NCBI RefSeq assembly: GCF_003334765.1
Contig: NZ_QOWT01000022.1
Length of the DNA stretch: 64,000 nucleotides
Reading direction: 5' to 3' (one strand)
Source: Escherichia coli
GTDB lineage: Bacteria > Pseudomonadota > Gammaproteobacteria > Enterobacterales > Enterobacteriaceae
In this document: piece after piece, positions 5,499-48,731 of the stretch
Position numbering within the stretch: position 1 is the first letter of the stretch
How the letters are laid out: every line of letters starts with the position of its first letter
Position numbers and translations under genes: made by a program
The notes under the pieces: generated by a model
Seen by the model: the letters and a program-made list of their open reading frames with translations, nothing else
What the model was told of the DNA's origin: nothing
The model's database searches: none

Positions 5499-5906
5499 GC
5501 AGGGTTCATCATGTATATGACCGACGCCGCGCAGAACCAGGAGGACGTGAACAACATCCGCCAGGCCATGAAAAGCGCTAAAGGACCGGGCAACTTCCGC
5601 AACCTGTTTATGTATTCACCCAACGGCAAAAAGGACGGGATTCAGATAATCCCGCTGTCAGAGGTAGCGGCAAAGGATGAGTTTCTGAACATTAAGAACG
5701 TGAGCCGAGACGACATGATGGCTGCACACCGCGTTCCGCCGCAGATGATGGGGATTATGCCGAGTAATGTTGGGGGATTTGGGGATGTGGAAAAGGCGAG
5801 TAAGGTGTTTGTCCGTAACGAATTGATACCGCTGCAAAAGCGAATTAAAGAAATTAATGAATGGTTGAGTGATGAAATAATTTCTTTCCAACCATATGAA
5901 TTATAA
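5376..5906 (+). pseudogene. Portal protein fragment (P2 gpQ-like, C-terminal portion only)
   Basis: 176-aa ORF ending ...NVSRDDMMAAHRVPPQMMGIMP...; portal-like C-terminus, about half the expected length; directly abuts gpR on the opposite strand with no capsid, terminase or lysis genes between. Confidence 0.6.
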
Positions 5907-5907
5907 T

Positions 5908-5934
5908 AAAGTAGGGCAAATAATGCCCTACTTT
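5908..5934. terminator. Bidirectional stem-loop between convergent portal fragment and 285-aa cargo gene
   Basis: Perfect inverted repeat AAAGTAGGGC-(AAATAAT)-GCCCTACTTT flanked by A/T runs. Confidence 0.6.
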
Positions 5935-6785
5935 AACCAAATATTATAATCCAATCTTCCTACGTATCTTGAAAAAACAGCCAGAGCAATTGCTTGCCCT
6001 ACACTTGTTAATTCAATTCCTTGATAGTTGCTCTTTGAAAATTTTTCTAAAAATGCAGACACATGAGGGGCAACTAACTTAAGATTTGAAATATATGCAC
6101 TCTTATCTTTTATATCAGTCGGATATTTACTCATAAAATAGTCTTCAACATCCATCCCTAAAAAAGTATTCCATGAACAAGCCCCTGCATATTGAATGTG
6201 ATATATCTGGGCTTGAGACAAATTAAACCCATTAGTATACATTGATTCAAAGTTTCTAAAATTGTGCTCCAACAAATCCAATCGAACACCATTAACAGGG
6301 TCTTTGATCTCAACATTCTTGAGAAGAAAAACTATCGTTATAAGTGATATTTGTTGCTGTGTTAACTTGGGAACGACGGTAACTGCCTCCGTTAAAACTA
6401 TATCTCTAAAATCGTCATTGTTATTGGAGACTCGTTCAACTAACAACTGAGAAAGCACATCCATATTAGCTTTCTTTCCCTTCCTGGCTGATGACTTTAA
6501 TGCCTCAGTCAATGTAGCCTGAACGTCCGGATCGCAAAATTTATCAATAATCAATCTATCAACGTTTTTTGTTAAATCCGAAACGACACGCTCTTCAAAA
6601 TCTTTTGCATTCTCTTGAGCTGCAGCATAAGCAACATCTTTCAATTTTGGAAACTGATTTTCGAAGAGAATGTTGAATAGTTCTCTAACCTCGGAAAACG
6701 ACATCCCTGAAACATTTACATTATTTCCAGCTTGAATTGCATACGAATTATTACCTATTTGTTGCTTTTGCTTATCACTAAACAT
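5928..6785 (-). CDS. Hypothetical protein, 285 aa (AT-rich cargo, cos-proximal)
   Basis: Long ORF in AT-rich DNA; no domain recognised; N-terminal low-complexity motif IGNNSYAIQAGNNVNV. Confidence 0.65.
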   Translation of the reverse strand: MFSDKQKQQIGNNSYAIQAGNNVNVSGMSFSEVRELFNILFENQFPKLKDVAYAAAQENAKDFEERVVSDLTKNVDRLIIDKFCDPDVQATLTEALKSSARKGKKANMDVLSQLLVERVSNNNDDFRDIVLTEAVTVVPKLTQQQISLITIVFLLKNVEIKDPVNGVRLDLLEHNFRNFESMYTNGFNLSQAQIYHIQYAGACSWNTFLGMDVEDYFMSKYPTDIKDKSAYISNLKLVAPHVSAFLEKFSKSNYQGIELTSVGQAIALAVFSRYVGRLDYNIWLK

Positions 6786-6794
6786 ATATCCTCC

Positions 6795-7040
6795 TTATTT
6801 TTTATCACCTGTATTTATACAATCAATTTTAATATCACCTCTAGCCTGGACAGCAGTTGAATTATCACCAACTGATTGGCTCATAGAATTATATTTATTT
6901 TTTGTAGTGATAAGTAATCCAGCTAAAGCGCTAACTGCAGCCAAAAATGCAACAATAGAATCAAAACCAGGATCCATATAAAGCCATAATCCTGCAATCG
7001 ATGCCAGCATACATGTAATGACTATTGCAAAAATTTTCAT
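6795..7040 (-). CDS. Small membrane protein, 81 aa, two predicted TM helices; co-oriented 9 bp upstream of the 285-aa gene
   Basis: Hydrophobic segments IFAIVITCMLASIAGLWLY and IVAFLAAVSALAGLLIT; C-terminal tail VGDNSTAVQARGDIKI resembles the N-terminus of the downstream protein. Confidence 0.55.
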   Translation of the reverse strand: MKIFAIVITCMLASIAGLWLYMDPGFDSIVAFLAAVSALAGLLITTKNKYNSMSQSVGDNSTAVQARGDIKIDCINTGDKK

Positions 7041-7108
7041 AAATTCTCCTTCTAATGGAAGTGGTTATACCGAAAACAATTTCCTTTTACAACCACGCAC
7101 AGCGCGCG

Positions 7109-7127
7109 CTCGTATCCCCGCCACGCC
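7109..7127 (-). other. cos-like site (P2/186-type cohesive-end sequence)
   Basis: Minus strand reads GGCGTGGCGGGGATACGAG, close to the P2/186 cos overhang as I recall it (GGCG[A/T]GGCGGGGAAAGCA-); sits in a GC-rich island inside AT-rich DNA. Confidence 0.45.
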
Positions 7128-7345
7128 TGCCCGCTTTGTGTAGTGGTTTTCATGCACCTGCATGACATAAGTAAAAGCCCGCCAGAACTGGCGGGACTGA
7201 GCAAAAACGATCCTTTTGCGATCATTCATTTTCATGCGCTATAGTCATGCAACAAACGCATACGAACCATATGGTTAGATTACTCATCAAGTCAGATGGA
7301 TTTTCAGGCAGATTGCCACAGCAATTGTAAAGGAGCGAGATTGAA

Positions 7346-8347
7346 ATGGGTGGAGAGACTTCGGCTATACAACGAGTCGCGGGTAAGATTTCTGATGATA
7401 TTTTCTCAGTGTTCAAATGGGATCGTGCCGCTAGAGCGGACATGAATTGGGATTGTTGCCAAGAGGCTCATTCCAAGAAAACACATCCAAGCGATGTTGT
7501 ATTTTTCTACATAGATCCATATGAGGAGGAAATGGTCTATCTCAACACAGACCTCAAAAGCTATGCAGAAGGTACTATTGGGAAAAAAATAGTCGAGGGA
7601 GCTTTAACATCGCTTGCTTTAGCTACCGAGTGTGCAAATGTCAGTGAAGAATGGCGATTGAAATATGTTCATGATGATTCTTTAGGTTATAACGTAAGAG
7701 GGTTATTATTCTTATATAACCATGATAATTTATATGATAAAGACTTCTATGAGAATATTACAAAAAAATTAGATCACTCATCTATAAATTGCCCTCCAAA
7801 CATCAAACTACATTTGCTTGACCCTTATAAAATATCAGATTTGATAAACATATCTTCTGACATAACTAAGTTAATTGGTTCAGGCAAACTTCCTCAACCT
7901 GATAAGTTCACATATTATTATCCAGATCTTTCCCTAACAAGAATAAAGCACCCTATTAATCAGACAACACCTGCAACAATTGAATTATTAACATCACCAT
8001 ACATTATAATAAAGCATGAGGCTTTCAGTTGGCTCAGGGATAAAAACCCTGAGGGATATGTTGTTTATTACAATCAACCGGGGGATTCAGTAGACGAATT
8101 CGTTTACTTCTTTGATATGTTATCAACTTATCAGATATTAACCGAAGGTAAACCAATCGTATTACGCCATTGTCACATTCACCCAAATGAAAATGCCATT
8201 CATCATTTTGAAAGAGCGAAAAAGAAATACAGCACAGACTGGCTCTTAGGCGAGGATGAAAGACTTTTTCTTAAAATTGACTTCGACAAGACAGACAAAA
8301 TTGTTGTTGAATATAATCTTGAACAAATCGGCATGGAGCAACGATAA
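7346..8347 (+). CDS. Hypothetical protein A, 333 aa (first gene of three-gene cargo operon)
   Basis: ORF with AGGAG-like RBS ~10 nt upstream; AT-rich; stop overlaps next start (TAATG); no Walker A, RT or TIR motif seen. Confidence 0.7.
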   Translation: MGGETSAIQRVAGKISDDIFSVFKWDRAARADMNWDCCQEAHSKKTHPSDVVFFYIDPYEEEMVYLNTDLKSYAEGTIGKKIVEGALTSLALATECANVSEEWRLKYVHDDSLGYNVRGLLFLYNHDNLYDKDFYENITKKLDHSSINCPPNIKLHLLDPYKISDLINISSDITKLIGSGKLPQPDKFTYYYPDLSLTRIKHPINQTTPATIELLTSPYIIIKHEAFSWLRDKNPEGYVVYYNQPGDSVDEFVYFFDMLSTYQILTEGKPIVLRHCHIHPNENAIHHFERAKKKYSTDWLLGEDERLFLKIDFDKTDKIVVEYNLEQIGMEQR

Positions 8348-9426
8348 TGGCTAAAAAACTATATTTCGCAACTGATAAAAATATTTATGATGCATTACAT
8401 CATAAAAGGATAACCGCTGCAAAGTTGCATGAATTATTGTTGAATCGAGGTGTGTTTTTATCACCAGAACTCGACAAGGAAATACTAATCGAGGAAATAT
8501 CCAAACTTCCTCACGGATTTAATGAATTAGAACACATAAAAAAACTGGTCAAAACATATGACCCAAGGGAAAGCACTACTAGTGTGAGCTTCCAAACCTC
8601 AACAAATCAGGCCGAATTAAAAAGTGCTGCTGAAGCACTAAAAAAAACATGCTCCCCTAGTAAAGGTCAAAGCCTGAATATTGTAGCTAAAAAAGATGGC
8701 TCGCTTACAGTAGAATACAAATATGAAGAAATAGACCTGTCTAAAACTGCATTACGTCAGATCGACAAGCGGAATGTTATAATAGAACTTCGCCCTGGAG
8801 CTGACAAAGTTGAAGTACGTATGCCTCAAAACCCCGAGGCAAAAAAAGTTATTGAGAGCTTGCAAAACGAGCTATCTAAAATCAAGTCCGAACCTATCGA
8901 GCGCTTCGAAATATCATTACTAGCAATAACTGATCCTACATTGCGAAGTCAGTTTTTTCAGGAATTAATGAATGGTCTACGCGGTTATGAGACTGATGAC
9001 GTAACAAAAGTCGAATTAAATCGCAGTACTGATGCTAGTGAGGATGAAGACAAGGAAGAAACTATTGATACCGGATTTGTTAAGAAAGCCGTCCTTAATG
9101 GTGAAGGGGTAAATAGTTCAGCTATATTTTCTCAACTACATGAGAAAGGTTATTATATCGGGCGTATTGCATGGTCTTCAAAGCCGACAAGTGGAATTGG
9201 AGACAGAATCAACGTCGAAGCATTTTTCAAAGACTCAGAAAAATGCTGTGACTTTGCCTATCAAATTAAAGGTATAAACAATCAAAAAGAAGACGGTTTC
9301 AATGTAACCATTCGCGCGGCAACGGCACAAGAGAAAAAACATATTAGTGAATTAATTGAGTCCGCCGCTGAAAATGCCTATAATATAATAATAGGATCAG
9401 AGGTGAACGAAGATGAAAAAGGTTAA
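8347..9426 (+). CDS. Hypothetical protein B, 359 aa (second gene of three-gene cargo operon)
   Basis: ORF coupled to gene A by a 1-nt overlap and to gene C by a 14-nt overlap; acidic stretch DASEDEDKEE; no recognisable domain. Confidence 0.7.
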   Translation: MAKKLYFATDKNIYDALHHKRITAAKLHELLLNRGVFLSPELDKEILIEEISKLPHGFNELEHIKKLVKTYDPRESTTSVSFQTSTNQAELKSAAEALKKTCSPSKGQSLNIVAKKDGSLTVEYKYEEIDLSKTALRQIDKRNVIIELRPGADKVEVRMPQNPEAKKVIESLQNELSKIKSEPIERFEISLLAITDPTLRSQFFQELMNGLRGYETDDVTKVELNRSTDASEDEDKEETIDTGFVKKAVLNGEGVNSSAIFSQLHEKGYYIGRIAWSSKPTSGIGDRINVEAFFKDSEKCCDFAYQIKGINNQKEDGFNVTIRAATAQEKKHISELIESAAENAYNIIIGSEVNEDEKG

Positions 9427-10096
9427 ATGGCTTAAGTTAAACATACGGCTTGAGTTTGAAACAGCCGTTAGACGTCTTTCTCTTGATTCTTTTACAGAGG
9501 ATAAAGGGAAAGGGTTCATTTTTGATAAAATACGCCATGATTTTGCAAATGGTCGCTTTGTCGAGCGTATTGTTTATCATGATAAAATATTAAGCTTTGA
9601 CGGAAGCGAAACTACCGTTGAAAGAATCGAATATCGCACCACAAATTTTAGCGTGGCTTTAGACTCTCTTCCTGTAATGCAGATTACTAACCCACCCAGA
9701 ACTTTAAAGCCTTTTTCGCAGGCTTTGGTAAAAAATCTTGGCTTAGGTGTTAGTTTGGAAGAAATTGACATAAACCCTATAGACTGGCTTAATGAAATAT
9801 CTTCAAGTGTAAATATCAATTTAACACAACTTGATATTTCAAGGGTTAGAGTTTCTGATTACGCCACAGCTAAAATGCAAATAATTGGCAGCAATGATCT
9901 TAGGAAGTATTATAAAGAAGAATTAGAGGGTAAAAAAATAAGAATTGACAGGCTTGTTTGCTCTGTTAATTCATTAGAATATTCCGGTAAGCTCAAGATC
10001 ACCAATAGCGGCCTTGCTTATATTGATGTTAGAAATGAGAATGAGTTTACGAAAATCGTTTTTGATACGTTAAAAAAAGTCACCCTTCAATCATAG
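9413..10096 (+). CDS. Hypothetical protein C, 227 aa (third gene of three-gene cargo operon)
   Basis: ORF starting inside the end of gene B; followed by a strong hairpin; no recognisable domain. Confidence 0.65.
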   Translation: MKKVKWLKLNIRLEFETAVRRLSLDSFTEDKGKGFIFDKIRHDFANGRFVERIVYHDKILSFDGSETTVERIEYRTTNFSVALDSLPVMQITNPPRTLKPFSQALVKNLGLGVSLEEIDINPIDWLNEISSSVNINLTQLDISRVRVSDYATAKMQIIGSNDLRKYYKEELEGKKIRIDRLVCSVNSLEYSGKLKITNSGLAYIDVRNENEFTKIVFDTLKKVTLQS

Positions 10097-10152
10097 ATGG
10101 CTTATAAGGAGTTACTTCACCTAACGCCTCGCCTTACTCGTTGTTCAACCTC

Positions 10153-10183
10153 GTAGGCGTCAGAATCAAGTTCTGACGCCTAC
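10153..10183. terminator. Bidirectional stem-loop between cargo operon and DinI-like gene
   Basis: 13-bp perfect inverted repeat GTAGGCGTCAGAA-(TCAAG)-TTCTGACGCCTAC. Confidence 0.6.
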
Positions 10184-10191
10184 AATGTTTC

Positions 10192-10425
10192 TTAATGCAG
10201 CCAGCTATCGTCCTCCCAGACCTGCTGCATTATTTCCATCACTCGCTTTTTGTCTTCATCCAGTTTTAACCCGCTCAGCTCAACGCCATTGGCGCTGCCC
10301 TTACGGATACGAATTGCTGTTTTGGGATACAGAGGGCGCAAATTACGGTAAAGCTCGGATTCAAGGGCGTCCAGGGTAGACTGGCTAATCTTCTGCTCTT
10401 TATCGATCATTATTTCAATGCGCAT
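10192..10425 (-). CDS. DinI-like protein
   Basis: ORF 10192-10497; internal Met begins MRIEIMIDKEQ..., 77 aa, alignable by eye to E. coli DinI (MRIEVTIAK...WESADDW); downstream of a LexA box. Confidence 0.7.
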   Translation of the reverse strand: MRIEIMIDKEQKISQSTLDALESELYRNLRPLYPKTAIRIRKGSANGVELSGLKLDEDKKRVMEIMQQVWEDDSWLH

Positions 10426-10435
10426 AAAAGCCACC

Positions 10436-10624
10436 TCAGCTGATGACATCCATTGAGCGGTTGTATTCGTGGGTTCTGATTTTTGCCATGAGTTCATCTG
10501 TCAGTTCAGAAACCCACTGCAGAGCCAGCCCCTTCTCTTCATCACTACACTCACTAGCCGCTACAAGCTTAAGAAAAAAATCAATGCGCTGGAGCTTCAA
10601 AGACTCCAAAAAATAGTCCTGCAT
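10436..10624 (-). CDS. Small protein, 62 aa, first gene after the LexA box (possible Tum-like antirepressor)
   Basis: ORF ~40 bp downstream of the LexA box; position corresponds to the SOS-controlled tum module of 186-like phages; functional call is by position only. Confidence 0.35.
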   Translation of the reverse strand: MQDYFLESLKLQRIDFFLKLVAASECSDEEKGLALQWVSELTDELMAKIRTHEYNRSMDVIS

Positions 10625-10664
10625 CTTTCCTCCTATGACACCAAAGCAACACTGTATACATAAC

Positions 10665-10683
10665 CACTGTTTGTATTTACAGT
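10665..10683. promoter_or_regulatory. LexA operator (SOS box) upstream of the tum-like/DinI-like module
   Basis: ACTGTTTGTATTTACAGTA fits CTG-N10-CAG; AT-rich promoter-like context. Confidence 0.7.
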
Positions 10684-10775
10684 ATATAATAATATTACTG
10701 ATGTAAAACGTTTTTTACGTTCATCAGCCTGATATGCCTGGTATTATTAAGAGCACGAATTGTTAACCTGCGTAA

Positions 10776-13190
10776 TTAATACAGGTTCCGCCACTTATCA
10801 TCTTCCTGCAAACGCTGGTTCCGATAGAAGATACGCAGGCCTGCTCCTGACGGAATACTGCCACCACGTAGGAGTAAATCGACCTCTTTCTCGCTGCCAT
10901 CAAATCCTCTGGACTTCAGCTCATAGACGAGCTGCTGTCGCTGATGATCTGTAATTCGCTGTTTGTAGTCTTTACGCCGTTTCAGCTTAACTAGGCGTAA
11001 CCTCGCTGCCAGTTCCCGGCGCTCTTTTTTGCTCATACTGTGCAGGTAATCGTGCAATTCCTTGTCATCCATGCGGGTAATGTCCGTTCTGGTGTCCCCA
11101 TCAGCTGATTTATCTTTATCCTGTTGGTTCAAATTTTCAGCAAGGGGACAGTTATTGCCACGAGTCCAAGGGGCGCAAGCGCCCTGGTCGGCTGCCGCCT
11201 CCTGAACGTCAACGGCTTTACGAACCATTTTCCACTTCACTGCATGAGTGCAGATCTTGCCCTCTGCAATGGGTGACCAGATGCCATAAATACGAATGCC
11301 GTGATCGCCATAGGCGGTCGGCTCTTCGTTGATTTCATAAGCGGTTCTGATGAGGTGATATTTACGGGGAACCAGTACGCCGCCCTGCTTCATGATGTAG
11401 GTGGCAAAACAACCAGCATCAGCAGCAGCCAGAATGGCATCAAGACGCGGGTTATCCAGTACCGGCGCACCTGCTTTTTTGTCACCCTGTTGCCTTGCCG
11501 CCTGACCAGCCAGCAAGCGAAGTTCACGGTAAGCCTGACGCCCCGGAATACCAAAGAAGCGGAATTGCTGAACACGATGCAGAGACGCCCAGGCATTAAC
11601 GTATTCAGCGTTATCACGCAGGGATTTACCCGTTTCCTTGCTGATCTCGCCAGCCAGACCACGCCCGTCAATGTTCTTACTGATGTATTTCGCGATGTAG
11701 CTTGTTGGCGTACCTTTGCGCGGGTTTATCAGCTCAGACTTAAAGCGTGGCCCCGTGTTATTGCCCAGCTCCTCGCGGTCTTCACGGATGGCAAACTTAC
11801 GCAACAATGCAGTAATGGCGCGGCGGTCTTTTTTGCGCATGAAACACAACAGGTGCCAGTGAACTGTGCCGTCATGATGCGGTTCAGCCACCCGCACGCC
11901 ATACCAGCGCAACCCGGCTTTGTGCATAGCCTTACGAAATGCAGCAAACATGCCGACCAGATAATCGCTGCTTTGTCTTACCGTCGCGTTTGTCCAGGTC
12001 GGGTTTGGTCTGCCGTTATTGAGCGTGGAATGGAAACGCGACGGACAGGTGATAGTGTAGAAAACGGCACAGTCACTGCGCATTTCTGCGATAAGCTCCA
12101 GACCTTTAACACAGGCCATCATCTCATTGCGGCGATGCGCCGGGTTGCTGCTGCTGGCGTTTACCACATCCTCCATGTCCAGCGTGTCGCCGTCTTCGTT
12201 CACCAGTTCATGAGAACGGAAAAACTCCAGCGACTTACGGCGCTGCTCACGTTTATGCATCACGGCTTCATAGCTGACATAGGGAGATGCTTTTTTGCTG
12301 ACCAGGCAAACAGCACGCAACTGCTCTTCCCGCCATTCGCAACGCATCTTCCATAATTTCCGGTACCACCAATCGGCGCACAACATACGCGCCAGCGAAC
12401 CCGGAATGAGTTCATAGGGCACGGGTTTACGGCGGTTTCTTTTCCGACGAAGTTGCTCAAACGCAGGCGGGATAACATCCAGTCGCAGGGTTTCTGCTGC
12501 CACCTTTTCCCATGTCTTGCGGATTTCTTCTGGCTTAACATCATCGGTGGCGTACAAATCACCACAAGCGGCATCAAGACACATGCTCATATGCGCAGCG
12601 ACAAGAGTAGACAGGCGTTTCACCTGATCCTGACTCATTTCAGGCAGAATCAGCAGGCCGTCCAGCCCTACATGGCTTGCCATAAAACGAAAAGATGCAG
12701 ATAGCTGGCTGTCGCGTACATGCTCCAGTCGCTCCAAACATGGCTTAATCGTCTCACGCAAATAGCGGGAATAAGCCTTTGGCCTGCCCAGGCTGCTGAA
12801 GTATTCAATACGTTGCATCAGCGGCTTGCTGATATGGGAAGGCTGGGCATTGACGTCCGCCAGAATGACCATATCTGGATTAAAACGCTGCTGCTCATGC
12901 GCCAGCTTTGCCCGACTAATGAGCTTATCCTGCTCCATTTCGCGCTGGACAGGATCACGGGATTCATTAAAGAAATAACGCTCCCAGACCTGATCACTCA
13001 GTGCCTCGCGGCGCAGGTGTTCCTGTTCGTTATCGGCAGCGTACAGAGCGATCAGGTTTGAAAGCGCAGAAACCGGCGCAACTTCCGCCGGGTCCAGATA
13101 AGGGTTAATGGCCTTTTTCGGGCTGTTCCATGAGAACGCTGCGGCAGCCTCGTTAAAGCCGCAGCAGTTGTTCATATCGGCATGGCTCAT
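10776..13190 (-). CDS. Replication initiation protein A (P2/186 gpA-like rolling-circle replicase)
   Basis: 804-aa ORF, the size and position of P2-family gene A; start overlaps Dam stop. Confidence 0.75.
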
Positions 13191-14044
13191 GCACGTACTC
13201 CGTACACGGCAGAACTATCCACGCCACGCGAATAATCAAATCCCACCCAGCAGCGCGGCCCGGAAACAGCAATGATTTCTGTTGCTGATTTACCCTCGCC
13301 AGCTGCCACACCGATGCTGCGTTTTACCTTGATATAGTGGTGAGTAAAATTGCGATACAGCGAACGGATCAGGGATGTATCACTGTTAGAAACAATGACC
13401 GGATGTCCTTCTGATGACCGATGTTCAAGAACGGATGCCAGGTGATACTGGTCATCTTCAGTGAAACCATCAGTGTGATAGCCGGAAAACGTACCGTCAT
13501 ACGGCGGATCGCAATACACCACATCCCCCGCCTTCAACATCGCCAGCGTTTCATCAAAGCTGGCGCAGATAAACGTTGCTCGCTGGGCTTTTTCTGCAAA
13601 TGCGCGAATTTCTTTTTCAGGGAAATACGGATTTTTATAATTACCGTAGGGAATGTTGAAATGCCCGCTCTTGTTATAGCGACATAAACCACGGTAACCG
13701 TGACGATTGAGATACAGGAAATATACCGCTTTCATGAAATCAGTAATTTCAGTTGAGTAATTAAACTCCTGCCTTATGTTGTAATAAGCCCCCCCCCTGT
13801 TTGCGATCTCAAATAAAACTCTGGCGCGAGATATAAACGATTCACAATCAGCAGCAACCTTTTTATAGAGGTTGATTAAATCAGGATTAATATCCGCAAC
13901 AAGATAGCTGGGGTACTCCGTCTCCATCATCACTGCACAGGAACCCGCGAAAGGTTCAACCAGTCGCGGGCCAGCAGGAAGATGCTTTTTCAGTTCGGAC
14001 ATAATGGCGGTTTTATTTCCCGCCCATTTCAGGATGGTGCTCAT
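13187..14044 (-). CDS. DNA adenine methyltransferase (Dam-like, D12 class)
   Basis: ORF 13187-14104; start chosen at internal Met ([11 protein letters not shown]...); motifs EPFAGSCAV and DPPY typical of Dam-type N6-adenine methyltransferases. Confidence 0.85.
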
Positions 14045-14268
14045 ACAGCACCTCCGTTGTAATGTTTGCCTTTCAGCTCTGCGATTTCCTGACAGGTAAT
14101 GCAAAGCTGCACACCCGGAATGGCACGGCGGCGTGCTGGCGGAATTGGCGCTTCACACTCAATGCAAAGCACGCGGGACACGCCCGGCGTTTTGGCACGG
14201 GCAGCACGGATATGACGCTGGCGTTCTTCTTCAACGCGCTGCTGTACGAGATCCATTGCATCAGCCAT
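14041..14268 (-). CDS. TraR/DksA-family C4 zinc-finger protein
   Basis: 75 aa with CIEC...CITC cysteine pairs. Confidence 0.7.
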   Translation of the reverse strand: MADAMDLVQQRVEEERQRHIRAARAKTPGVSRVLCIECEAPIPPARRRAIPGVQLCITCQEIAELKGKHYNGGAV

Positions 14269-14507
14269 TAGTGGATCTCCTGCGCTTCGTTCTGGATTGC
14301 TTCAGCTGCCACACGCAGCAGTTCAGCCGCTTCAACGTGGTTTAGCTGGCGGGATGTGATATGGCACGCAAGGCTATCAAGGCGAGCTGCCATTGCTTCA
14401 GCTCTTGCCCGACGTTCTTCCAGACGAGCCTCTGTCAGTAAAATATTAAGTCCTGCGTCATCCGGTCCGGTTTTAGTCGAGAGGGTTTCAATATTACGCA
14501 TAATCAA
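14268..14507 (-). CDS. Hypothetical phage early-region protein, 79 aa
   Basis: ORF packed in the early operon between the TraR-like gene and upstream genes. Confidence 0.5.
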   Translation of the reverse strand: MIMRNIETLSTKTGPDDAGLNILLTEARLEERRARAEAMAARLDSLACHITSRQLNHVEAAELLRVAAEAIQNEAQEIH

Positions 14508-14568
14508 TTCTCCTGAATTTAGATAAAGGAATGCCCGGCGGGTTTACGCCATGAATTTCATTAATTGG

Positions 14569-14910
14569 TTAATTCGGCATGGCTAGCCGTCTGGGAAATA
14601 AGCTCACCACTGCACGAAGATGATTCATTACTTTAATCAACTCCCGCTTTTCGTCAGTGGTCAGCTCATTAATGCTGATGCTATGACGTTCAGCTGGAAT
14701 TTTTGCTATAAAGAATATAGCAGCCAGTGCTCGTTTATTTCGTTCATAATTAATATCCCGTGGATCACGCATATCTTTAATAAACCGCTCAAGCTCTGAC
14801 TCAATATTCAGGCCAAAAACTTTCGCCCTTAACTCTGCAATGTGATTAAGTCCATTCAGGCGTTCACCGGGGCTTAATGGAACAGTTGCTGCAGCGCCAT
14901 TAATTGCCAT
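14569..14910 (-). CDS. Hypothetical phage early-region protein, 113 aa
   Basis: ORF in early operon; no recognisable domain. Confidence 0.5.
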   Translation of the reverse strand: MAINGAAATVPLSPGERLNGLNHIAELRAKVFGLNIESELERFIKDMRDPRDINYERNKRALAAIFFIAKIPAERHSISINELTTDEKRELIKVMNHLRAVVSLFPRRLAMPN

Positions 14911-15027
14911 ACTTCATATCCCCCAAACGCAGCTATCGTTCTTTGTTCTTACGGTAACGCTCAAGAGGAGATACATTTTTTCGTATCGTCTCTTTAACCT
15001 GCTCTCCCCGTAAAAACGTCCCATCCT

Positions 15028-15324
15028 TTAACGTGAAAAAGTAACTGCCATCGCCCGACAATGACGGATAGCAACAGAGCAAATCATCTTCAGGTACTGA
15101 ATAACTCTCCCCTCTGTAACGAAACTGATAAACCACTTCACTTTCTGCCGCATACATTTGGACTTTCTCCGTTTCCTCGTGGTCAATTCAGACAGCAATT
15201 CATCTTGTGAATGACATGGATGCCAGCGTTTTCCATCCTCACCCGTGATCCAGCCGTGACCGTAGTGCATTGCCGGGCTTTGTTTTACCAGCAGCGATGC
15301 AAATGATGGTTCTTTCGTCAGCAT
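15028..15324 (-). CDS. Hypothetical early protein immediately downstream of cII (candidate Fil/Dhr-like); boundaries uncertain
   Basis: ORF 15028-15354 with start placed at internal Met (MLTKEPSF...); overlaps a second out-of-frame ORF 14933-15157, so only one is likely real. Confidence 0.35.
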   Translation of the reverse strand: MLTKEPSFASLLVKQSPAMHYGHGWITGEDGKRWHPCHSQDELLSELTTRKRRKSKCMRQKVKWFISFVTEGRVIQYLKMICSVAIRHCRAMAVTFSR

Positions 15325-15331
15325 AAGCACC

Positions 15332-15841
15332 TCACAGCAAACCGAATGAAGCACCGAGGCCAGTCACGGTATCAACTGCACTCGCCATCGCAGGATTAGC
15401 CTGTAAACGGGCCTGCAATGAAACAGCAGCCAGCGCCATCAGTCGTGTTACAGAGTTAATGCTGCTGATAGCATCACGACGACCGGCACTAGTTTTTACA
15501 TCACCAGATACCGCACCTGCTGCAACACGCCCGATCTCTGCAGTTGCGCTCATGACGTAATGCGGCAGTTTCTCTTTTGCTACCTCATTAATCGGTACAC
15601 ATGGCAGACAATGAATCTGTGCCAGAAAACCATCTACCAACGTTGAATCTTCAGTCAGATCGGTAAGCAGCCAGATTTCTGGTGCGGTTAATAAATGAGG
15701 TTGAGCTGGGTTCAGCTTGTTCCGCAGAATCTGCACATTCATGCCCGCACGTTCTGCCAGTTGCACCAGATTGTGGCGCAGTGCGAATGCACGACAGGCT
15801 TCATCAAAATGTGGATGTTTGGAAACTTGGTAATCAAACAT
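15332..15841 (-). CDS. cII: Phage regulatory protein CII (186-type, CP76 family)
   Basis: ORF 15332-15850; start at [19 protein letters not shown]... gives 169 aa; sequence matches what I recall of 186 CII. Confidence 0.75.
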
Positions 15842-15905
15842 GGTTTTCAACTCCGAACTTATCGCAAAATCGAACTCAGCGTCTTATTGCGAAAATAGAC
15901 GTCTA

Positions 15906-16109
15906 TTAAGCAGACAAAGCATCAACAGTCAGAGCAGCCAGGTTAATCATTACCTTTTCACGTTTTTTGTCTTTACGAAGACGATGACGAGGTAGTCGGC
16001 CATCAGCCAACATGTCGTTAATCGTATCAATAGAAAGGCCAGTCAGTTCGCTATAACGTTCGATTGTGACATGTGGTGTATTCAGAGTAATTGAAATGTT
16101 AGGTGTCAT
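15906..16109 (-). CDS. Apl/Cox-like excisionase and transcriptional regulator
   Basis: 67-aa ORF divergent from the repressor gene, first gene of the early operon. Confidence 0.6.
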
Positions 16110-16254
16110 AAGGCAACATTCCTTCTAGATATGGCTTGTGGCGAGCCGTTGTTTGTCGTGATTAGTAGTGAAGGCTCCAAAAGAACACTTCTGGTTCAAC
16201 TTTAAGATCGCTTTTGGAATCTGTCAACGAATTTTGGATTTCTTTGGAGGACTT
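16110..16254. promoter_or_regulatory. Lysis-lysogeny switch region between apl and cI
   Basis: Intergenic region between divergently oriented apl-like and CI-like genes; operators and promoters expected by analogy with 186 but not mapped. Confidence 0.5.
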
Positions 16255-16824
16255 GTGGATTTCAATAGCGGCGGTAAGAAAGCCATAGAACGTTTAGTTG
16301 AAGCATATGGGTTCGGTACCCGTCAGGCTCTATGTGATCATTTAGGTGTTTCTAAGAGCACCATGGCAACGCGCTATATGCGTGATATTTTTCCAGCAGA
16401 TTGGGTAATCCAGTGCGCCCTTGAAACGGGCACCTCGCTTAATTGGCTAACAACAGGGCATGGTTCAAAGCAAGCATCAGCAAATACAAATACTATAGAA
16501 GTAGAAAAATATTTATTGTCTGATGGAGCATTGCAGAAAGACGGTTTTTATATTTTTGATAAGGGATTTCTACCCTCTACGTTTAAAAAACCTTTTGTCA
16601 TCACAGATAACAATTCTGAATTTATTTGTGATAAAGAATTTGATGATATACGTGATGGTAAATGGGTAATAAGTATTGATGGCGAAATAACGATCCGTGA
16701 CATTACTCGTTTACCCGGTGGAAGAATCTTCGTCGAGGGTGGAAACAGAGCCTTCGAATGCAAGATAGAAGACATTGAAATAATTGGTAAAATTATAAGT
16801 TTAACAGTCAAGTATGTTAAATAG
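16255..16824 (+). CDS. cI: Immunity repressor (186 CI-type)
   Basis: ORF 16168-16824; start placed at GTG 16255 preceded by GGAGGA; product ...ERLVEAYGF...QCALETGTSLNWLTTG... fits the 186 CI N-terminal HTH region; length ~189 aa. Confidence 0.7.
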   Translation: MDFNSGGKKAIERLVEAYGFGTRQALCDHLGVSKSTMATRYMRDIFPADWVIQCALETGTSLNWLTTGHGSKQASANTNTIEVEKYLLSDGALQKDGFYIFDKGFLPSTFKKPFVITDNNSEFICDKEFDDIRDGKWVISIDGEITIRDITRLPGGRIFVEGGNRAFECKIEDIEIIGKIISLTVKYVK

Positions 16825-16839
16825 TACCGGGAGGAAACT

Positions 16840-17031
16840 ATGCTTGGTAAGGTATTTTTTGTGGTTTTGTCATGTTCTTTGTTATTAAACCCACTAACTA
16901 CCTATGCTAGAAATTATCCCTGCTCAGGGAAAAAGGGAGGTGTTTCTCACTGTACCTCAGATGGCAAATTCGTTTGCAATGATGGAACTATTAGTAAATC
17001 CAAAAAAATCTGTACTAAAAACTCACGATAA
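16840..17031 (+). CDS. Small cysteine-rich secreted peptide, 63 aa, between cI and int
   Basis: N-terminal hydrophobic signal-like segment [23 protein letters not shown] followed by ~40 residues with four Cys; AT-rich. Confidence 0.45.
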
Positions 17032-17219
17032 CTTTTGCTTTTATATCTGCGTCTAAAATAAAAATGAGCCGCAGGTTAACCGCAAAAGTTACATGCTCAC
17101 ATAGCAAAAAGAATAGCCAACTTAATTATGGCTTCAGTGAGATGTATGGTCGTAGGATTTCATACATTGACACTGGTTATACATACAGTGAAAATGCTCT
17201 CTACTGGAGGGCATTTTTT

Positions 17220-18296
17220 ATGGCAGTACGAAAACTCACCACTGGGAAATGGCTTTGCGAATGTTACCCCGCCGGACGAAGTGGGCGTCGTGTGCGTAAA
17301 CAATTCGTCACCAAAGGCGAAGCACTGGCTTTTGAGCGCCACACGATGGAAGAAACCGAAGCAAAGCCCTGGCTGGGTGAATCAGTGGATCGTCGAACAC
17401 TGAAAGACGTGGTTGAGCTATGGTTCAAACTACATGGTAAATCTCTGACAGCTGGGCAGCATGTCTATGACAAATTGCTGTTGATGGTTGACGCTCTGGG
17501 CAATCCTCTTGCAACCGATCTCACCTCTAAAATGTTTGCCCACTATCGAGATAAACGCCTGACAGGCGAGATCTACTTCAGCGAGAAATGGAAGAAAGGA
17601 GCAAGCCCGGTCACCATTAACCTGGAGCAAAGCTATCTAAGTAGTGTTTTTAGCGAACTATCCCGTCTGGGCGAATGGTCGTATCCGAACCCACTGGAGA
17701 ACATGCGAAAATTCACCATCGCAGAAAAAGAGATGGCATGGCTTACCCATGAGCAGATTGTTGAATTGCTGGCTGATTGCAAACGTCAGGACCCAATTCT
17801 GGCACTGGTAGTTAAGATATGCTTAAGCACAGGCGCACGCTGGCGTGAAGCCGTAAATCTTACCCGCTCACAGGTGACCAAATACCGAATTACCTTTGTC
17901 AGAACGAAGGGGAAGAAAAACAGAAGCATCCCTATCAGTAAAGAGCTTTACGAAGAGATCATGGCGCTTGATGGGTTCAATTTCTTCACAGACTGCTATT
18001 TTCAATTTTTATCCGTGATGGAAAAAACGTCTATCGTGCTCCCTCGCGGTCAACTCACACACGTTCTGCGCCATACGTTTGCGGCGCACTTCATGATGTC
18101 GGGTGGAAACATTCTGGCCTTACAAAAAATTCTCGGACACCACGATATAAAAATGACTATGCGTTACGCACATCTGGCACCGGATCATCTGGAAACGGCG
18201 CTCCGTTTCAATCCTCTGGCAACGCTGCCAAGTGGCGACAAAGTGGCGACAAAGTGGCGGCAGCGGTTGGCATTACCCCGTAATAACCACCACTGA
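17220..18296 (+). CDS. int: Tyrosine integrase (P2/186 type)
   Basis: ORF 17064-18296; start chosen at MAVRKLTTGKWLCECYP...; C-terminal region HVLRHTFAAH...MRYAHLAPDHL typical of tyrosine recombinases; 3' end abuts host DNA. Confidence 0.9.
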   Translation: MAVRKLTTGKWLCECYPAGRSGRRVRKQFVTKGEALAFERHTMEETEAKPWLGESVDRRTLKDVVELWFKLHGKSLTAGQHVYDKLLLMVDALGNPLATDLTSKMFAHYRDKRLTGEIYFSEKWKKGASPVTINLEQSYLSSVFSELSRLGEWSYPNPLENMRKFTIAEKEMAWLTHEQIVELLADCKRQDPILALVVKICLSTGARWREAVNLTRSQVTKYRITFVRTKGKKNRSIPISKELYEEIMALDGFNFFTDCYFQFLSVMEKTSIVLPRGQLTHVLRHTFAAHFMMSGGNILALQKILGHHDIKMTMRYAHLAPDHLETALRFNPLATLPSGDKVATKWRQRLALPRNNHH

Positions 18297-18301
18297 CCAC
18301 C

Positions 18302-18339
18302 AACCTAACTTATTGTTTTTAATCTAACTTATTGTTTTC
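18302..18339. repeat. Tandem 19-bp direct repeat just downstream of int (candidate att or arm-site region)
   Basis: AACCTAACTTATTGTTTTT followed by AATCTAACTTATTGTTTTC, 17/19 identical. Confidence 0.5.
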
Positions 18340-18387
18340 ATTAACCCGTTTACATAAATGGGTTTTTTGTTATCTAAAACTTATCTA

Positions 18388-36955: not shown

Positions 36956-38827
36956 TTATCTACGCATGAATGCGTATTCTGATTGTGGTTGTGCGACGTA
37001 ATGCCCCGGCCCGACGCATTGCAACGAGACGGCTGCCACCTCTTCGCCACGCAGATGAATATTGCTGGGAAGATCGTCCGACAGCAGTACACGCTGCGGT
37101 CGTTGTCGGGACGGTTCAGCGACCGGAACTGCCGCCAGTAATTTACGCGTATAAGGATGCTGCGGGTTTTCGAAGACCGCGCGCCGTGGACCAATTTCAA
37201 CAATTTGCCCGAGATACATCACCGCCACACGATGACTAATCCGCTCTACCACCGCCATATCGTGGGAGATAAACAGATACGCAATGCCGAAATCACGCTG
37301 GAGATCGAGCAACAAGTTGATAATCTGCCCGCGAATAGAAACATCCAGCGCCGAAACGGCTTCGTCGGCAATGATCACTTTTGGATTCAATGCCAACGCG
37401 CGAGCAATGCAGATGCGCTGGCGCTGACCGCCGGAAAACTCATGCGGGTAACGCCAGGCATGTTCAGGTAACAGGCCCACGCGCTCCAGCAACCACGCAA
37501 CGCGTGCAGCCGCGTCTTTACCTGGCAATAAACCGTGTACACGCAGCGGTTCGATAATCGAATCACCGATGGTCTGACGTGGGTCCAGCGAAGCGTAAGG
37601 GTCCTGAAAAATAAACTGAATATCCCGGCGTAATGCCTGAAGTTTGCCGGGTGACAAGGTATCGATTCGCTGACCGTTAAAGATAATTTCGCCGCCCTGC
37701 GATTCGACCAGGCGCAGCAACGCCCGCCCGGTAGTGGATTTACCGCTGCCAGACTCGCCCACCAGCGATAGCGTTTCGCCAGGCCAGAGATCAAAACTGA
37801 CTTTCTCAACGGCATGCACTTCCCGCGTTACGCGATTCAACAAACCGCTGCGCAAAGGGAAACGGGTGACAAGATTACGCACTCGTAAAACAGGTTCGCC
37901 ATCCACCACCGTTTTCTGCTCGATGGGGGGGGCCTGTTTCGCTGGATGTTCAAGCGATATCAACGGGAAACGTCGGGGATAATCTAACCCTTTCATCGCA
38001 CCAAGTTGCGGAACAGCAGCTAACAGCGCACGGGTGTAAGGATGTTGCGGTGCATGAAAAATCTGTTCGACGGTACCCGTTTCCACCGCCTCGCCCTGAT
38101 ACATCACCAGTACCCGATCGGCAATCTCTGCCACCACGCCCATATCGTGAGTGATAAAGATAACGCCCATCGACATCTCTTTTTGCAATACTTTGATTAA
38201 TTGCAGGATCTGCGCCTGAATAGTGACATCCAGCGCGGTGGTTGGCTCATCGGCAATCAGCACCGCCGGGCGGCATGACAGCGCCATCGCAATCATCACT
38301 CGCTGGCGCATCCCGCCAGAGAGTTGATGCGGATAACGTGAAAGAATGGTTTGTGCCTCAGGAATGCGTACCTGATCCAGCATCCGCTTCGCCTCGACCA
38401 TCGCTTCTTCACGACTGGCGTTCTGATGCAGACGAATTGATTCGGCAATCTGTTCACCCACAGTAAATACCGGGTTCAGCGATGTCATCGGCTCCTGAAA
38501 TATCATCGCCATATCCGCACCGCGAACATGGCGCATTTGTGCAGCGTTCTGCTCGCTAAGTTCAATCACTTCGCGACTGCGCCGCTGCAACAGCATTTTA
38601 TCGCACTGTACTAAACCGCCCGCCTGTTCCAACAGGCGCATCAATGCCAACGCAGTCACTGACTTACCGGAGCCGGATTCGCCAACAATTGCCAGCGTCT
38701 CACCGCGTTGCAGACTAAAAGAGAGATTGCGGACCGCAGCTATTTTCTGCTGGTCCTGCATAAAGGCAATATTCAGATTTTCAACCGCCAGCACATTACC
38801 GGCATCAAGTTCATCACTGTGTGGCAA
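36956..38827 (-). CDS. gsiA: Glutathione ABC transporter ATP-binding protein GsiA (probable TTG start)
   Basis: Two ABC domains (two GESGSGKS Walker A motifs); 623 aa if initiated at TTG 38827-38825, which reproduces the K-12 N-terminus MPHSDEL as I recall it; no in-frame ATG at that position. Confidence 0.85.
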
Positions 38828-39779
38828 CGGTGTCCCCTTTTTCACGGTAGATACCGGTGGTTGGCGTATCGCCTGCGTAGCCCCAGGCGCGATACATTCC
38901 TTCGGTGTTAAACGGTAGCGCGACATTCCCTTCATGGTCGATAGCGATTAAGCCACCGCTACCGCCAAGCGCAGGGAGTTTTTCCATTACTACCCGCTCG
39001 CAGGCTTCCGCGAGACTTAATCCGCCGTAATCCATTAACGCGGCGATGTCATATGCCGCCAGCGCGCGGATGAAGACTTCGCCCGTGCCGGTACAAGAAA
39101 CCGCCACACTGGCGTTATTGGCGTAGCATCCGGCACCCACTAAGGGACTATCGCCAACTCGTCCGGGTAATTTATTGGTCATTCCGCCTGTGGACGTGGC
39201 TGCCGCCAAATTGCCGTCTAAATCCAACGCCACGGCCCCCACGGTGCCCATTTTCTGTTTTTCATCCAGTGGCGCACCGCTATGGTCGAGGACGGTTGCC
39301 CCTTCCTTGCGCGCTGCCAGTAGTTGTTCATAACGCAAAGGCGTGGAGAAAATCTCCGGCGAGACGCGCTCCATGCCACGAGCAAACGCAAAATTTTCTG
39401 CCCCTTCGCCAATCATCATCACATGCGGGCTTTGCTCCATCACCAGCCGGGCGGCAAGAACCGGATTACGCAGATGACTAACGCCCGCCACCGCACCGGC
39501 TTTCAGGGTGTTACCATCCATCACACAGGCGTCCAGTTCATGGGTTTCATCACGCGTAAAGACAGCGCCAATTCCGGCGTTAAACAGTGGACACTCTTCC
39601 AGCAGACGCACCGCTTCCGTCACCACATCCAGCGCACTTTCGCCCGCTTCCAGCATTTTCTGCCCGGTTTCAACAATGGCAGACAACGCCTCGATGTAGC
39701 GTAATTCCTGTTGCAGACTCATCTGCGCGCGGCTAATTGCACCTGCGCCACCATGAATTGCAATGACTGCTTTGCCCAT
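38814..39779 (-). CDS. iaaA: Isoaspartyl peptidase / L-asparaginase IaaA
   Basis: 321 aa Ntn-hydrolase; synteny. Confidence 0.9.
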
Positions 39780-48633: not shown

Positions 48634-48731
48634 GCCTGATGCGGCGTTAACGCCTTATCCGGCCTACAAAGTCCTGCAGATTCAATATATTGCAGGTACT
48701 GCGTAGGCCTGATAAGCGTAGCGCATCAGGC
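48634..48731. repeat. REP/BIME elements between ybiU and ybiT
   Basis: GCCTGATGCGGCGTTAACGCCTTATCCGGCCTAC and inverted GTAGGCCTGATAAGCGTAGCGCATCAGGC are typical E. coli REP palindromes. Confidence 0.8.

What the first reader, a model, noticed from the sequence alone, without database searches (positions are those of the whole stretch)
38814..38835. gsiA appears to initiate at a TTG codon overlapping the end of iaaA
Seen in sequence: the reading frame upstream of the recognisable GsiA N-terminus has no ATG at the expected position; a TTG at 38827-38825 yields the K-12 N-terminus MPHSDEL... as I recall it and a 623-aa product, and it lies within 12 nt of the iaaA stop. This is ordinary core-genome biology but relevant for correct annotation.
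Basis: partly seen in the sequence, partly recalled or inferred. Interest (0 to 1): 0.15.

Follow-up and report, generated by a model that had tools for sequence, protein, structure and literature searches.

The report
gsiA starts at a TTG codon
The glutathione-importer gene gsiA does begin at a rare TTG start codon, 14 bases inside the end of the neighbouring gene iaaA, but the curated E. coli K-12 annotation already records this and a published ribosome-profiling experiment supports it, so it is ordinary.

Summary
On the minus strand, TTG 38827-38825 opens a 623-aa frame ([11 protein letters not shown]...). It lies 11 nt upstream of the iaaA stop (TGA 38816-38814), giving a 14-nt overlap. 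One detail is wrong. The frame stays open 40 codons upstream and holds in-frame ATGs at 38935 and 38926 and a GTG at 38845.

K-12 MG1655 annotates this TTG (NP_415350.2). The 2006 record used GTG codon 12, and the 2014 record moved the start by -33 nt. Tetracycline ribosome profiling (Nakahigashi 2016) gave signals of 46/140/71 at the TTG against 0/0/3 at the old start.

My own checks agree:
- Only the TTG has a good Shine-Dalgarno sequence (AAGGGG, 6-nt spacing, -7.8 kcal/mol).
- In 12 Enterobacterales lineages codon 1 is always TTG, GTG or ATG. Codon 12 drifts among GTG, GTT and GTA.
- Four lineages have in-frame stops 4-9 codons upstream.
- The 45-nt junction is identical in 5158 of 5426 E. 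coli genomes.

The overlap looks derived. The ancestral iaaA stop (TAA, inside the SD) reads AAA in E. coli, E. albertii and Citrobacter.

No N-terminal peptide has been reported, and two other initiation datasets show no peak. Interest is low.

The parts
38825..38827 (-). gsiA start codon TTG (UUG, read as fMet)
   Evidence: Read from the sequence. Same as the K-12 annotated start 867520. TetRP signal 46.3/140.5/70.6. The homologous codon is TTG, GTG or ATG in all 12 lineages.
38834..38839 (-). Shine-Dalgarno sequence AAGGGG, 6 nt upstream of the TTG. It lies inside iaaA codons K314-G315-D316 and is part of an A5G4 homopolymer run (38834-38842).
   Evidence: Duplex with the 16S 3' tail is -7.8 kcal/mol, the best of all in-frame candidates. 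A purine-rich SD (-6.0 to -12.0 kcal/mol) sits at the same position in 11 of 12 lineages.
36956..38827 (-). gsiA coding sequence, 623 codons plus stop: the glutathione ABC transporter ATP-binding subunit with two fused ABC ATPase domains
   Evidence: NCBIfam NF007613 GsiA equivalog scores 1376 bits (cut-off 1077) and aligns residues 1-623 to profile positions 1-623. ORF list.
38814..39779 (-). iaaA coding sequence (321 aa, isoaspartyl dipeptidase proenzyme); stop TGA at 38814-38816
   Evidence: ORF list; K-12 annotation.
38814..38827 (-). 14-nt iaaA/gsiA overlap; gsiA is in the +1 frame relative to iaaA
   Evidence: Read from the sequence; the annotation coordinates overlap at 867520-867533.
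38838..38840 (-). iaaA codon 314, AAA. The homologous triplet is the iaaA stop TAA in Salmonella, Lelliottia, Leclercia and one metagenomic lineage (L096). Reading through it adds 8 residues (KGDTVATQ) to IaaA and creates the overlap.
   Evidence: Junction comparison.
38792..38794 (-). Rejected start: GTG codon 12 (612 aa), the start in the 2006 K-12 annotation
   Evidence: TetRP signal 0/0/2.98. SD duplex only -2.3 to -3.0 kcal/mol. The codon is GTT or GTA in 6 of 12 lineages.
38924..38935 (-). Rejected starts: in-frame ATGs at 38935-38933 and 38926-38924 (659 and 656 aa), inside iaaA
   Evidence: No usable SD (-1.5 and +0.2 kcal/mol with at least 3 nt spacing). The GsiA profile matches only residues 37-659 of the long ORF. 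In-frame stops lie 4-9 codons upstream of codon 1 in four lineages.
38843..38845 (-). Rejected start: in-frame GTG 6 codons upstream (629 aa)
   Evidence: SD -3.0 kcal/mol. The codon is GCG in E. albertii and in E. coli strain L003, and GGG in Citrobacter and Salmonella.

Best explanation
gsiA is translated from the UUG at window 38827-38825 (minus strand), giving the 623-aa ATP-binding subunit of the GsiABCD glutathione importer. 30S subunits are positioned by the Shine-Dalgarno sequence AAGGGG (38839-38834), which sits 6 nt upstream inside the last codons of iaaA. The start lies 11 nt before the iaaA stop, so ribosomes finishing iaaA on the shared mRNA pass over the gsiA initiation region and terminate just after it. 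That passage should keep the site unfolded and may allow some re-initiation (translational coupling). UUG is a weaker initiator than AUG, so the arrangement probably sets a modest GsiA output. Shown: the codon, the SD, the overlap, the curated annotation, the in vivo initiating-ribosome signal and the cross-species conservation. Inferred: the contribution of coupling, the reduced efficiency, and the origin of the overlap by a TAA-to-AAA stop loss in iaaA.
For: (1) K-12 MG1655 annotates gsiA at 867520..869391, starting at this TTG and overlapping iaaA by 14 nt. The accession is version .2.
(2) Nakahigashi et al. 2016 (PMC4909307), Table S2 row 8: yliA has a new TTG initiation at -33. TetRP signal is 46.3/140.5/70.6 at the TTG and 0/0/2.98 at the 2006 start, and the site equals the 2014 re-annotation.
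(3) The SD duplex of -7.8 kcal/mol with 6-nt spacing is the best of six in-frame candidates. Only 1.8% of TTG triplets in the window have one this strong.
(4) In 12 Enterobacterales lineages the homologous codon is TTG (6), GTG (5) or ATG (1), never a non-start codon. Eleven of the 12 have an SD just upstream.
(5) Codon 12 varies GTG/GTT/GTA, as an internal Val codon would.
(6) In-frame stops lie 4-9 codons upstream in Lelliottia, E. fergusonii and two metagenomic lineages. Variovorax and Bordetella orthologues next to an iaaA homologue have stops 16-17 codons upstream of the match and an ATG that leaves a similarly short tail.
(7) The NCBIfam GsiA equivalog aligns 1-623 to 1-623.
(8) 85 of the 120 best protein clusters are 623 aa with the 11-residue tail.
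(9) The 45-nt junction is identical in 5158 of 5426 complete E. coli genomes, and none of the four sampled variants (L003, L091-L093) changes the TTG.
(10) E. fergusonii lacks iaaA but keeps TAAGGAG, 6 nt, then TTG.
Against: No N-terminal peptide for GsiA was found in the TetRP study (empty column), nor in the supplements held here for TRAINSPOTTER or the Salmonella N-terminomics study. The TetRP 'confirmation' field reads 'nt', which I take to mean no lacZ fusion was tested. INRI-seq, run in vitro on an isolated fragment, gave 0 CPM in 5 of 5 replicates at this TIS, and Ribo-RET gave 0. These are weak negatives, because INRI-seq misses about 30% of annotated TISs and Ribo-RET about 82%. Annotations and the NCBIfam model are not independent of one another. 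TetRP screened only NTG codons within 60 nt of the old start, so the ATGs at 38935 and 38926 are excluded only by comparative and SD arguments.
Confidence: 0.93

Rival explanations
1. GsiA starts at the GTG at 38794-38792 (codon 12), giving a 612-aa protein. This was the 2006 K-12 annotation (U00096.2).
For: This start keeps the whole conserved ABC domain. PDB and NCBIfam homologues (Rv1281c, DppD, OppD, YejF) begin to align only at GsiA residues 9-13, so residues 1-11 are a non-conserved tail. It was the annotated start until 2014. One database cluster (P0015) is called from this codon.
Against: TetRP signal here is 0/0/2.98 against 46/140/71 at the TTG. The SD is absent (-2.3 to -3.0 kcal/mol). 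The codon is GTT or GTA, which cannot initiate, in 6 of 12 lineages. INRI-seq lists no alternative TIS in gsiA.
Confidence: 0.03
2. GsiA starts at an upstream in-frame codon inside iaaA: ATG 38935 (659 aa), ATG 38926 (656 aa) or GTG 38845 (629 aa). This would add 6-36 residues encoded in an alternative frame of iaaA.
For: The frame is open for 40 codons upstream and these are canonical start codons. A longest-ORF rule would pick 38935. A few database entries are called long (P0020, P0024, P0114). TetRP did not screen beyond 60 nt, so the two ATGs were not tested directly.
Against: There is no SD at a usable spacing. The GsiA family profile matches only residues 37-659 of the 659-aa ORF. The ATGs fall inside the iaaA codons for the DHEGNV stretch (read), so iaaA coding can account for them; 38926 is ACG in Citrobacter. 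GTG 38845 is GCG or GGG in E. albertii, Citrobacter, Salmonella and one E. coli strain. In-frame stops 4-9 codons upstream in four lineages make any extension non-conserved. GTG 38845 lies within the TetRP search range but was not listed as a candidate.
Confidence: 0.01
3. The TTG is the start, but in E. coli it is reached mainly by ribosomes that have just translated iaaA (termination and re-initiation across the 14-nt overlap) rather than by free 30S subunits binding the SD. GsiA output would then depend on iaaA translation.
For: The iaaA stop lies 11-14 nt downstream of the start, on one mRNA. UUG is a weak initiator (general knowledge). The isolated initiation region gave no INRI-seq peak in vitro, while gsiB, gsiC and gsiD did. 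In vivo TetRP shows a clear peak.
Against: A well-placed SD is conserved in 11 of 12 lineages. E. fergusonii uses the same SD and TTG with no iaaA upstream. O157:H7 carries iaaA Q116stop about 620 nt upstream yet keeps an intact gsiA. INRI-seq misses about 30% of all annotated TISs. The region is not unusually structured (z = -0.78), so no unfolding by upstream ribosomes is obviously needed.
Confidence: 0.25

Closest known systems
gsiA (b0829, formerly yliA) of E. coli K-12 MG1655, NP_415350.2, as annotated in NC_000913.3 / U00096.3
   Same: Identical sequence at the junction, the same TTG start, the same 623-aa product and the same 14-nt overlap with iaaA. The window is collinear with MG1655 842,347-887,989 with 5 SNPs.
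   Different: Nothing at this locus. The strain is not MG1655 itself: it has SNPs and a prophage at rybB that MG1655 lacks.
gsiA of Salmonella enterica, Lelliottia, Leclercia and [Enterobacter] lignolyticus
   Same: Orthologous genes with 618-623-aa products, the N-terminus (M)PHS..., an SD 5-7 nt upstream of the homologous start codon, and iaaA immediately upstream.
   Different: The start codon is GTG rather than TTG. iaaA ends 5-11 nt before the start, with its TAA or TAG stop inside or next to the SD, so there is no overlap.
Other E. coli start sites re-annotated by TetRP, for example ybeZ (TTG, +39) (Nakahigashi et al. 2016, Table S2)
   Same: They are in the same class: a start moved between the 2006 and 2014 K-12 records to a non-ATG codon and independently supported by tetracycline-arrested ribosome footprints.
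   Different: ybeZ also has an N-terminal peptide ('new annotation'). gsiA has none.
Translationally coupled overlapping gene pairs in bacterial operons (for example the classical ATGA or TGATG overlaps of the trp operon; from general knowledge)
   Same: The downstream start and its SD are embedded in the 3' end of the upstream gene on one transcript.
   Different: The overlap is 14 nt rather than 1 or 4 nt, the start is UUG, and functional coupling has not been shown for iaaA-gsiA.

Membership tests
GsiA, glutathione ABC transporter ATP-binding protein (NCBIfam NF007613 equivalog) | Whole-protein score above the curated cut-off, with an end-to-end match to the profile | tested here: met
   1376.3 bits against a cut-off of 1077; residues 1-623 align to profile positions 1-623.
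GsiA, glutathione ABC transporter ATP-binding protein (NCBIfam NF007613 equivalog) | Two fused ABC ATPase domains, each followed by an oligo_HPY C-terminal region | tested here: met
   Two stretches match DppD/OppD-type and DppF/OppF-type models (12-277 and 308-591). Orthologues carry precomputed Pfam hits in the order ABC_tran, oligo_HPY, ABC_tran, oligo_HPY.
GsiA, glutathione ABC transporter ATP-binding protein (NCBIfam NF007613 equivalog) | Operon context iaaA-gsiA-gsiB-gsiC-gsiD | tested here: met
   K-12 annotation of the identical sequence.
GsiA, glutathione ABC transporter ATP-binding protein (NCBIfam NF007613 equivalog) | Glutathione import activity | not testable with these tools
   Rests on the published work on yliABCD (Suzuki et al. 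2005, cited from general knowledge and through PMC10355420). That paper is not held in the library.
Genes initiated at a non-AUG (UUG) codon | An NTG codon preceded by a Shine-Dalgarno sequence at about 5-9 nt | tested here: met
   AAGGGG, 6-nt spacing, -7.8 kcal/mol.
Genes initiated at a non-AUG (UUG) codon | Initiating ribosomes mapped to the codon in vivo | tested here: met
   Published TetRP data: 46.3/140.5/70.6 at the TTG against 0/0/2.98 at the previous start. Ribo-RET and INRI-seq show no peak.
Genes initiated at a non-AUG (UUG) codon | The codon is held to the start-codon set (ATG/GTG/TTG) across orthologues | tested here: met
   TTG 6, GTG 5, ATG 1 in 12 lineages. The neighbouring Val codon 12 drifts freely.
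Genes initiated at a non-AUG (UUG) codon | The mature protein's N-terminus is (f)Met-Pro-His or Pro-His, shown by protein chemistry | tested here: inconclusive
   No peptide in the TetRP N-terminomics column, TRAINSPOTTER or the Salmonella supplements held here. The N-terminal tryptic peptide is 28 residues long, which may hinder detection (read).
Translationally coupled overlapping gene pair | The downstream start lies within or next to the upstream stop on the same strand | tested here: met
   14-nt overlap, 38814-38827.
Translationally coupled overlapping gene pair | Downstream translation depends on translation of the upstream gene | not testable with these tools
   The hints are indirect and point both ways: INRI-seq is negative on the isolated fragment, while E. 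fergusonii lacks iaaA and O157:H7 has iaaA Q116stop with an intact gsiA.

The most novel reading that the evidence does not exclude
The 14-nt overlap in E. coli, E. albertii and Citrobacter arose when the ancestral iaaA stop (the TAA inside the gsiA Shine-Dalgarno TAAGGRG) changed to AAA. That change extended IaaA by 8 residues and moved iaaA termination to just downstream of the gsiA UUG. In these lineages GsiA synthesis would then depend substantially on iaaA translation. Lineages with a truncated iaaA (O157:H7 Q116stop) would make less glutathione importer. The A5G4 run that forms the SD would be a mutational hotspot producing IaaA-GsiA fusions.
Probability: 0.2. Interest if true: 0.2.

Novelty: already known. 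Interest (0 to 1): 0.06.

Why it matters
The practical value is for annotation. A longest-ORF rule would aa, an ATG-only rule 601 aa or longer forms, and the 2006 K-12 record called 612 aa. The right answer is 623 aa from a TTG hidden inside iaaA. This has been settled in the curated K-12 record since 2014 and is propagated by PGAP. gsiA is the only TTG-initiated gene among the 60 complete annotated CDSs of this span (53 ATG, 6 GTG, 1 TTG), so it is a mild rarity rather than a surprise. The comparative picture, with the stop codon inside the SD lost in one clade to create the overlap, is a neat small example of how gene overlaps arise. It opens no new question.

Tried and rejected
It returned mostly distant paralogues and only two enteric orthologues, so I switched to a protein search followed by exact-protein contig look-ups.
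- A literature search for gsiA with 'start codon' and TTG found nothing. A search for gsiA with iaaA found only passing mentions.
- The TRAINSPOTTER N-terminomics supplements and the Salmonella riboproteogenomics supplements do not mention gsiA.
- No supplements are held for the Ribo-RET preprint. Its values were read second-hand from INRI-seq Table S2.
- Suzuki et al. 2005 is not held, at least under the PMC id I guessed.
- The PDB has no GsiA structure. Homologues align only from residues 9-13, so structures cannot separate codon 1 from codon 12.
- The RNA fold of -50..+50 around the start is not unusual (z = -0.78), so no structural element is proposed.
- Rfam and tRNA scans found nothing at the junction.
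- I considered programmed frameshifting at the A5G4 run as the source of the 940-aa fusions and rejected it. The DNA of L098 and L099 carries 1-nt deletions that explain them. gsiA is in the +1 frame, and I saw no canonical slippery site for that shift.
Full report
**1. The observation**

On the minus strand the window reads ...CGT GAA AAA GGG GAC ACC GTT GCC ACA CAG TGA in the iaaA frame. One base further along, the gsiA frame reads ...ACA CCG TTG CCA CAC AGT GAT GAA CTT GAT GCC.... The TTG is at 38827-38825 and the iaaA stop TGA is at 38816-38814, so the genes share 14 nt (38814-38827). Translation from the TTG to the stop at 36958-36956 gives 623 residues beginning (M)[21 protein letters not shown].

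One statement needs correcting. The frame is open for 40 codons upstream of the TTG (in-frame stop TAA at 38950-38948). It contains ATGs at 38935 (659 aa) and 38926 (656 aa) and a GTG at 38845 (629 aa). Downstream there is a GTG at 38794 (codon 12, 612 aa) and an ATG at 38761 (codon 23). The TTG is therefore not the only possible start and has to be justified.

**2. Curated annotation**

The window is the reverse complement of E. coli K-12 MG1655 from 842,347 to about 887,989, with 5 SNPs. It is identical to K-12 across the junction. NC_000913.3 annotates iaaA at 866568..867533 and gsiA at 867520..869391 (1872 nt). That is the same TTG with the same 14-nt overlap, under protein accession NP_415350.2. 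RefSeq/PGAP uses the same start in all seven other strains I opened. PGAP propagates starts between genomes, so this agreement is weak as independent evidence.

**3. Experimental evidence**

Nakahigashi et al. 2016 (DNA Res 23:193, PMC4909307) mapped initiating ribosomes arrested by tetracycline (TetRP). Their Table S2, row 8, lists yliA (ECK0819) with a new initiation site at -33 nt and a TTG start codon. The TetRP signal was 46.3/140.5/70.6 in three samples at the TTG and 0/0/2.98 at the 2006-annotated start. The column comparing the new site with the 2014 annotation reads 0, and the listed protein begins [11 protein letters not shown]. A shift of -33 nt from the TTG places the 2006 start at GTG codon 12 (window 38794).

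So the K-12 record was changed between U00096.2 (2006) and U00096.3 (2014) from GTG12 to this TTG, and TetRP supports the change independently. There are limits. The 'confirmation' field is 'nt', which I read as no reporter fusion tested. The N-terminal-peptide column is empty. TetRP screened only NTG codons within 60 nt of the old start, so ATG 38935 and 38926 were not examined.

Two other datasets show no peak. INRI-seq (in vitro, on isolated fragments; PMC9825163, Table S2) gives 0 CPM in five replicates at 867520. The Ribo-RET column (Meydan 2019) is also 0, and no alternative gsiA TIS is listed. These methods fail to detect about 30% and 82% of annotated TISs respectively, so the negatives carry little weight. 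I found no gsiA entry in the supplements held for two N-terminomics studies.

**4. Sequence-intrinsic evidence**

The TTG is preceded by AAGGGG (38839-38834) with a 6-nt spacer. The predicted duplex with the 16S rRNA 3' tail is -7.8 kcal/mol. The five other in-frame candidates range from +0.4 to -3.0 kcal/mol. Only 38 of 2140 TTG triplets in the window (1.8%) have an upstream duplex this strong. The 100-nt region around the start is not unusually structured (MFE -29.8 kcal/mol, z = -0.78).

Homology alone cannot separate codon 1 from codon 12. PDB homologues (Rv1281c 8j5q_D, DppD, OppD) and sister NCBIfam models align only from residues 9-13, so residues 1-11 are a non-conserved tail. The GsiA equivalog NF007613 (623 positions) aligns 1-623 to 1-623, and only to residues 37-659 of the longest ORF.

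**5. Comparative evidence**

I collected the junction from 12 Enterobacterales lineages. The codon homologous to the E. coli TTG was:
- **TTG (6):** E. coli, E. albertii, E. fergusonii, Citrobacter werkmanii, C. amalonaticus and one metagenomic lineage.
- **GTG (5):** Salmonella, Lelliottia, Leclercia, [Enterobacter] lignolyticus and one metagenomic lineage.
- **ATG (1):** Enterobacter sp. Bisph1.

It is never a non-start codon. The Val codon 12, only 33 nt away, is GTG in 6, GTT in 4 and GTA in 2. Eleven of the 12 lineages have an SD (-6.0 to -12.0 kcal/mol) directly upstream. In-frame stops lie 4-9 codons upstream of codon 1 in Lelliottia, E. fergusonii and the two metagenomic lineages, which rules out a conserved N-terminal extension. 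GTG 38845 is GCG or GGG in E. albertii, Citrobacter, Salmonella and even one E. coli strain.

More distant orthologues in Variovorax and Bordetella also sit just downstream of an iaaA homologue. They have in-frame stops 16-17 codons upstream of the match and an ATG that leaves a similarly short tail before the first beta-strand. Of the 120 best protein clusters, 85 are 623 aa with the 11-residue tail. Within E. coli, the 45-nt stretch from GTG 38845 to 38801 is identical in 5158 of 5426 complete genomes. The four variants sampled (L003, L091-L093) leave the TTG untouched.

**6. How the overlap arose (inference)**

In Salmonella, Lelliottia, Leclercia and one metagenomic lineage (L096), iaaA ends ...Y-R-E-TAA. 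That TAA is the first triplet of the gsiA SD (gaaTAAGGAG or gaaTAAGGGG), 10-11 nt before the start. Three other lineages (Enterobacter sp. Bisph1, L097 and [E.] lignolyticus) also end iaaA before the gsiA start, with spacers of 5-13 nt. E. fergusonii has lost iaaA altogether but keeps TAAGGAG, 6 nt, then TTG. In E. coli, E. albertii and the two Citrobacter species the triplet is AAA (window 38840-38838, iaaA codon 314). IaaA then runs on for 8-9 more residues (KGDTVATQ in E. coli) to a TGA inside gsiA. The non-overlapping state is more widespread and is shared with distant outgroups, so the overlap is most simply a derived stop-loss. Whether it arose once or spread by recombination I did not resolve.

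**7. Mechanism**

The best-supported reading is SD-directed initiation at UUG on the iaaA-gsiABCD transcript. Ribosomes finishing iaaA terminate 11-14 nt downstream of the start, so termination and re-initiation coupling is possible, but it is neither demonstrated nor clearly needed. E. fergusonii manages without iaaA. O157:H7 carries iaaA Q116stop (CAA to TAA) about 620 nt upstream while its gsiA stays intact. The INRI-seq negative on the isolated fragment is the only hint of dependence, and it is weak. I put coupling as a substantial contributor at about 0.25.

**8. Comparison with what is known, and verdict**

This is the K-12 gsiA start as curated since 2014 and supported by published TetRP data, so it is already known. 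In the K-12 annotation of this span gsiA is the only TTG start among 60 complete CDSs (53 ATG, 6 GTG). That makes it a mild rarity, in line with the roughly 88% ATG usage quoted for E. coli. The missing piece is direct protein-level confirmation of the N-terminus.

Noticed in passing
L005 1822-2787 (E. coli O157:H7 NZ_CP133128.1); homologous to window 39779-38814: In O157:H7, iaaA is flagged as a pseudogene. Codon 116 is TAA rather than CAA (Q116stop), about 620 nt upstream of an intact gsiA. This is a natural test case for whether gsiA translation needs iaaA translation.
   Followed up: partly
L098 about 1236-1251 and L099 about 988-1003; homologous to window 38834-38842: The 940-aa IaaA-GsiA fusion proteins in the database (P0002, P0004) come from 1-nt deletions in the A5G4 run that forms the gsiA SD. 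L098 has A5 to A4 and L099 has G4 to G3. The two independent alleles give the same junction ...REKG|TPLPHSD.... They may be real mutations or homopolymer sequencing errors.
   Followed up: partly
L087 967-1200 (E. fergusonii): E. fergusonii has no iaaA between moeA and gsiA. A 233-nt intergenic region leads straight to TAAGGAG, 6 nt, then TTG.
   Followed up: partly
P0018 (protein database): A 900-aa Asparaginase_2 plus ABC-transporter fusion that is 96% identical to E. coli GsiA is labelled Trichuris trichiura. This probably reflects E. coli contamination in a whipworm assembly.
   Followed up: no
L003 2774-4868 (E. coli strain ExPEC, NZ_CM172609.1): In this strain gsiA is split into a 1533-nt 'ATP-binding cassette domain-containing protein' CDS plus a partial pseudogene, so it is disrupted or rearranged.
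   Followed up: no
window 1-18357: This stretch is absent from the MG1655 span, and collinearity breaks inside rybB (K-12 position about 887,990). It encodes a tyrosine integrase at the boundary (17064-18296, +), a protein matching the PHROG family 'nicking at origin of replication' (10776-13190, -) and a DNA methyltransferase (13187-14104, -). This looks like a prophage integrated at rybB, so the strain is close to K-12 but is not MG1655.
   Followed up: partly
window 48668-48710 (+): This is the only Rfam hit above gathering score in the window: the ES036 (CssrF) sRNA family, 41.6 bits.
   Followed up: no
window 38839 (L092, L093; E. coli strains MS8324 and AREA_504): This variant changes A to G at -12 within the SD (GAAAAAGGGG to GAAAGAGGGG). 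It changes IaaA K314 to R and creates a GAGG core.
   Followed up: no
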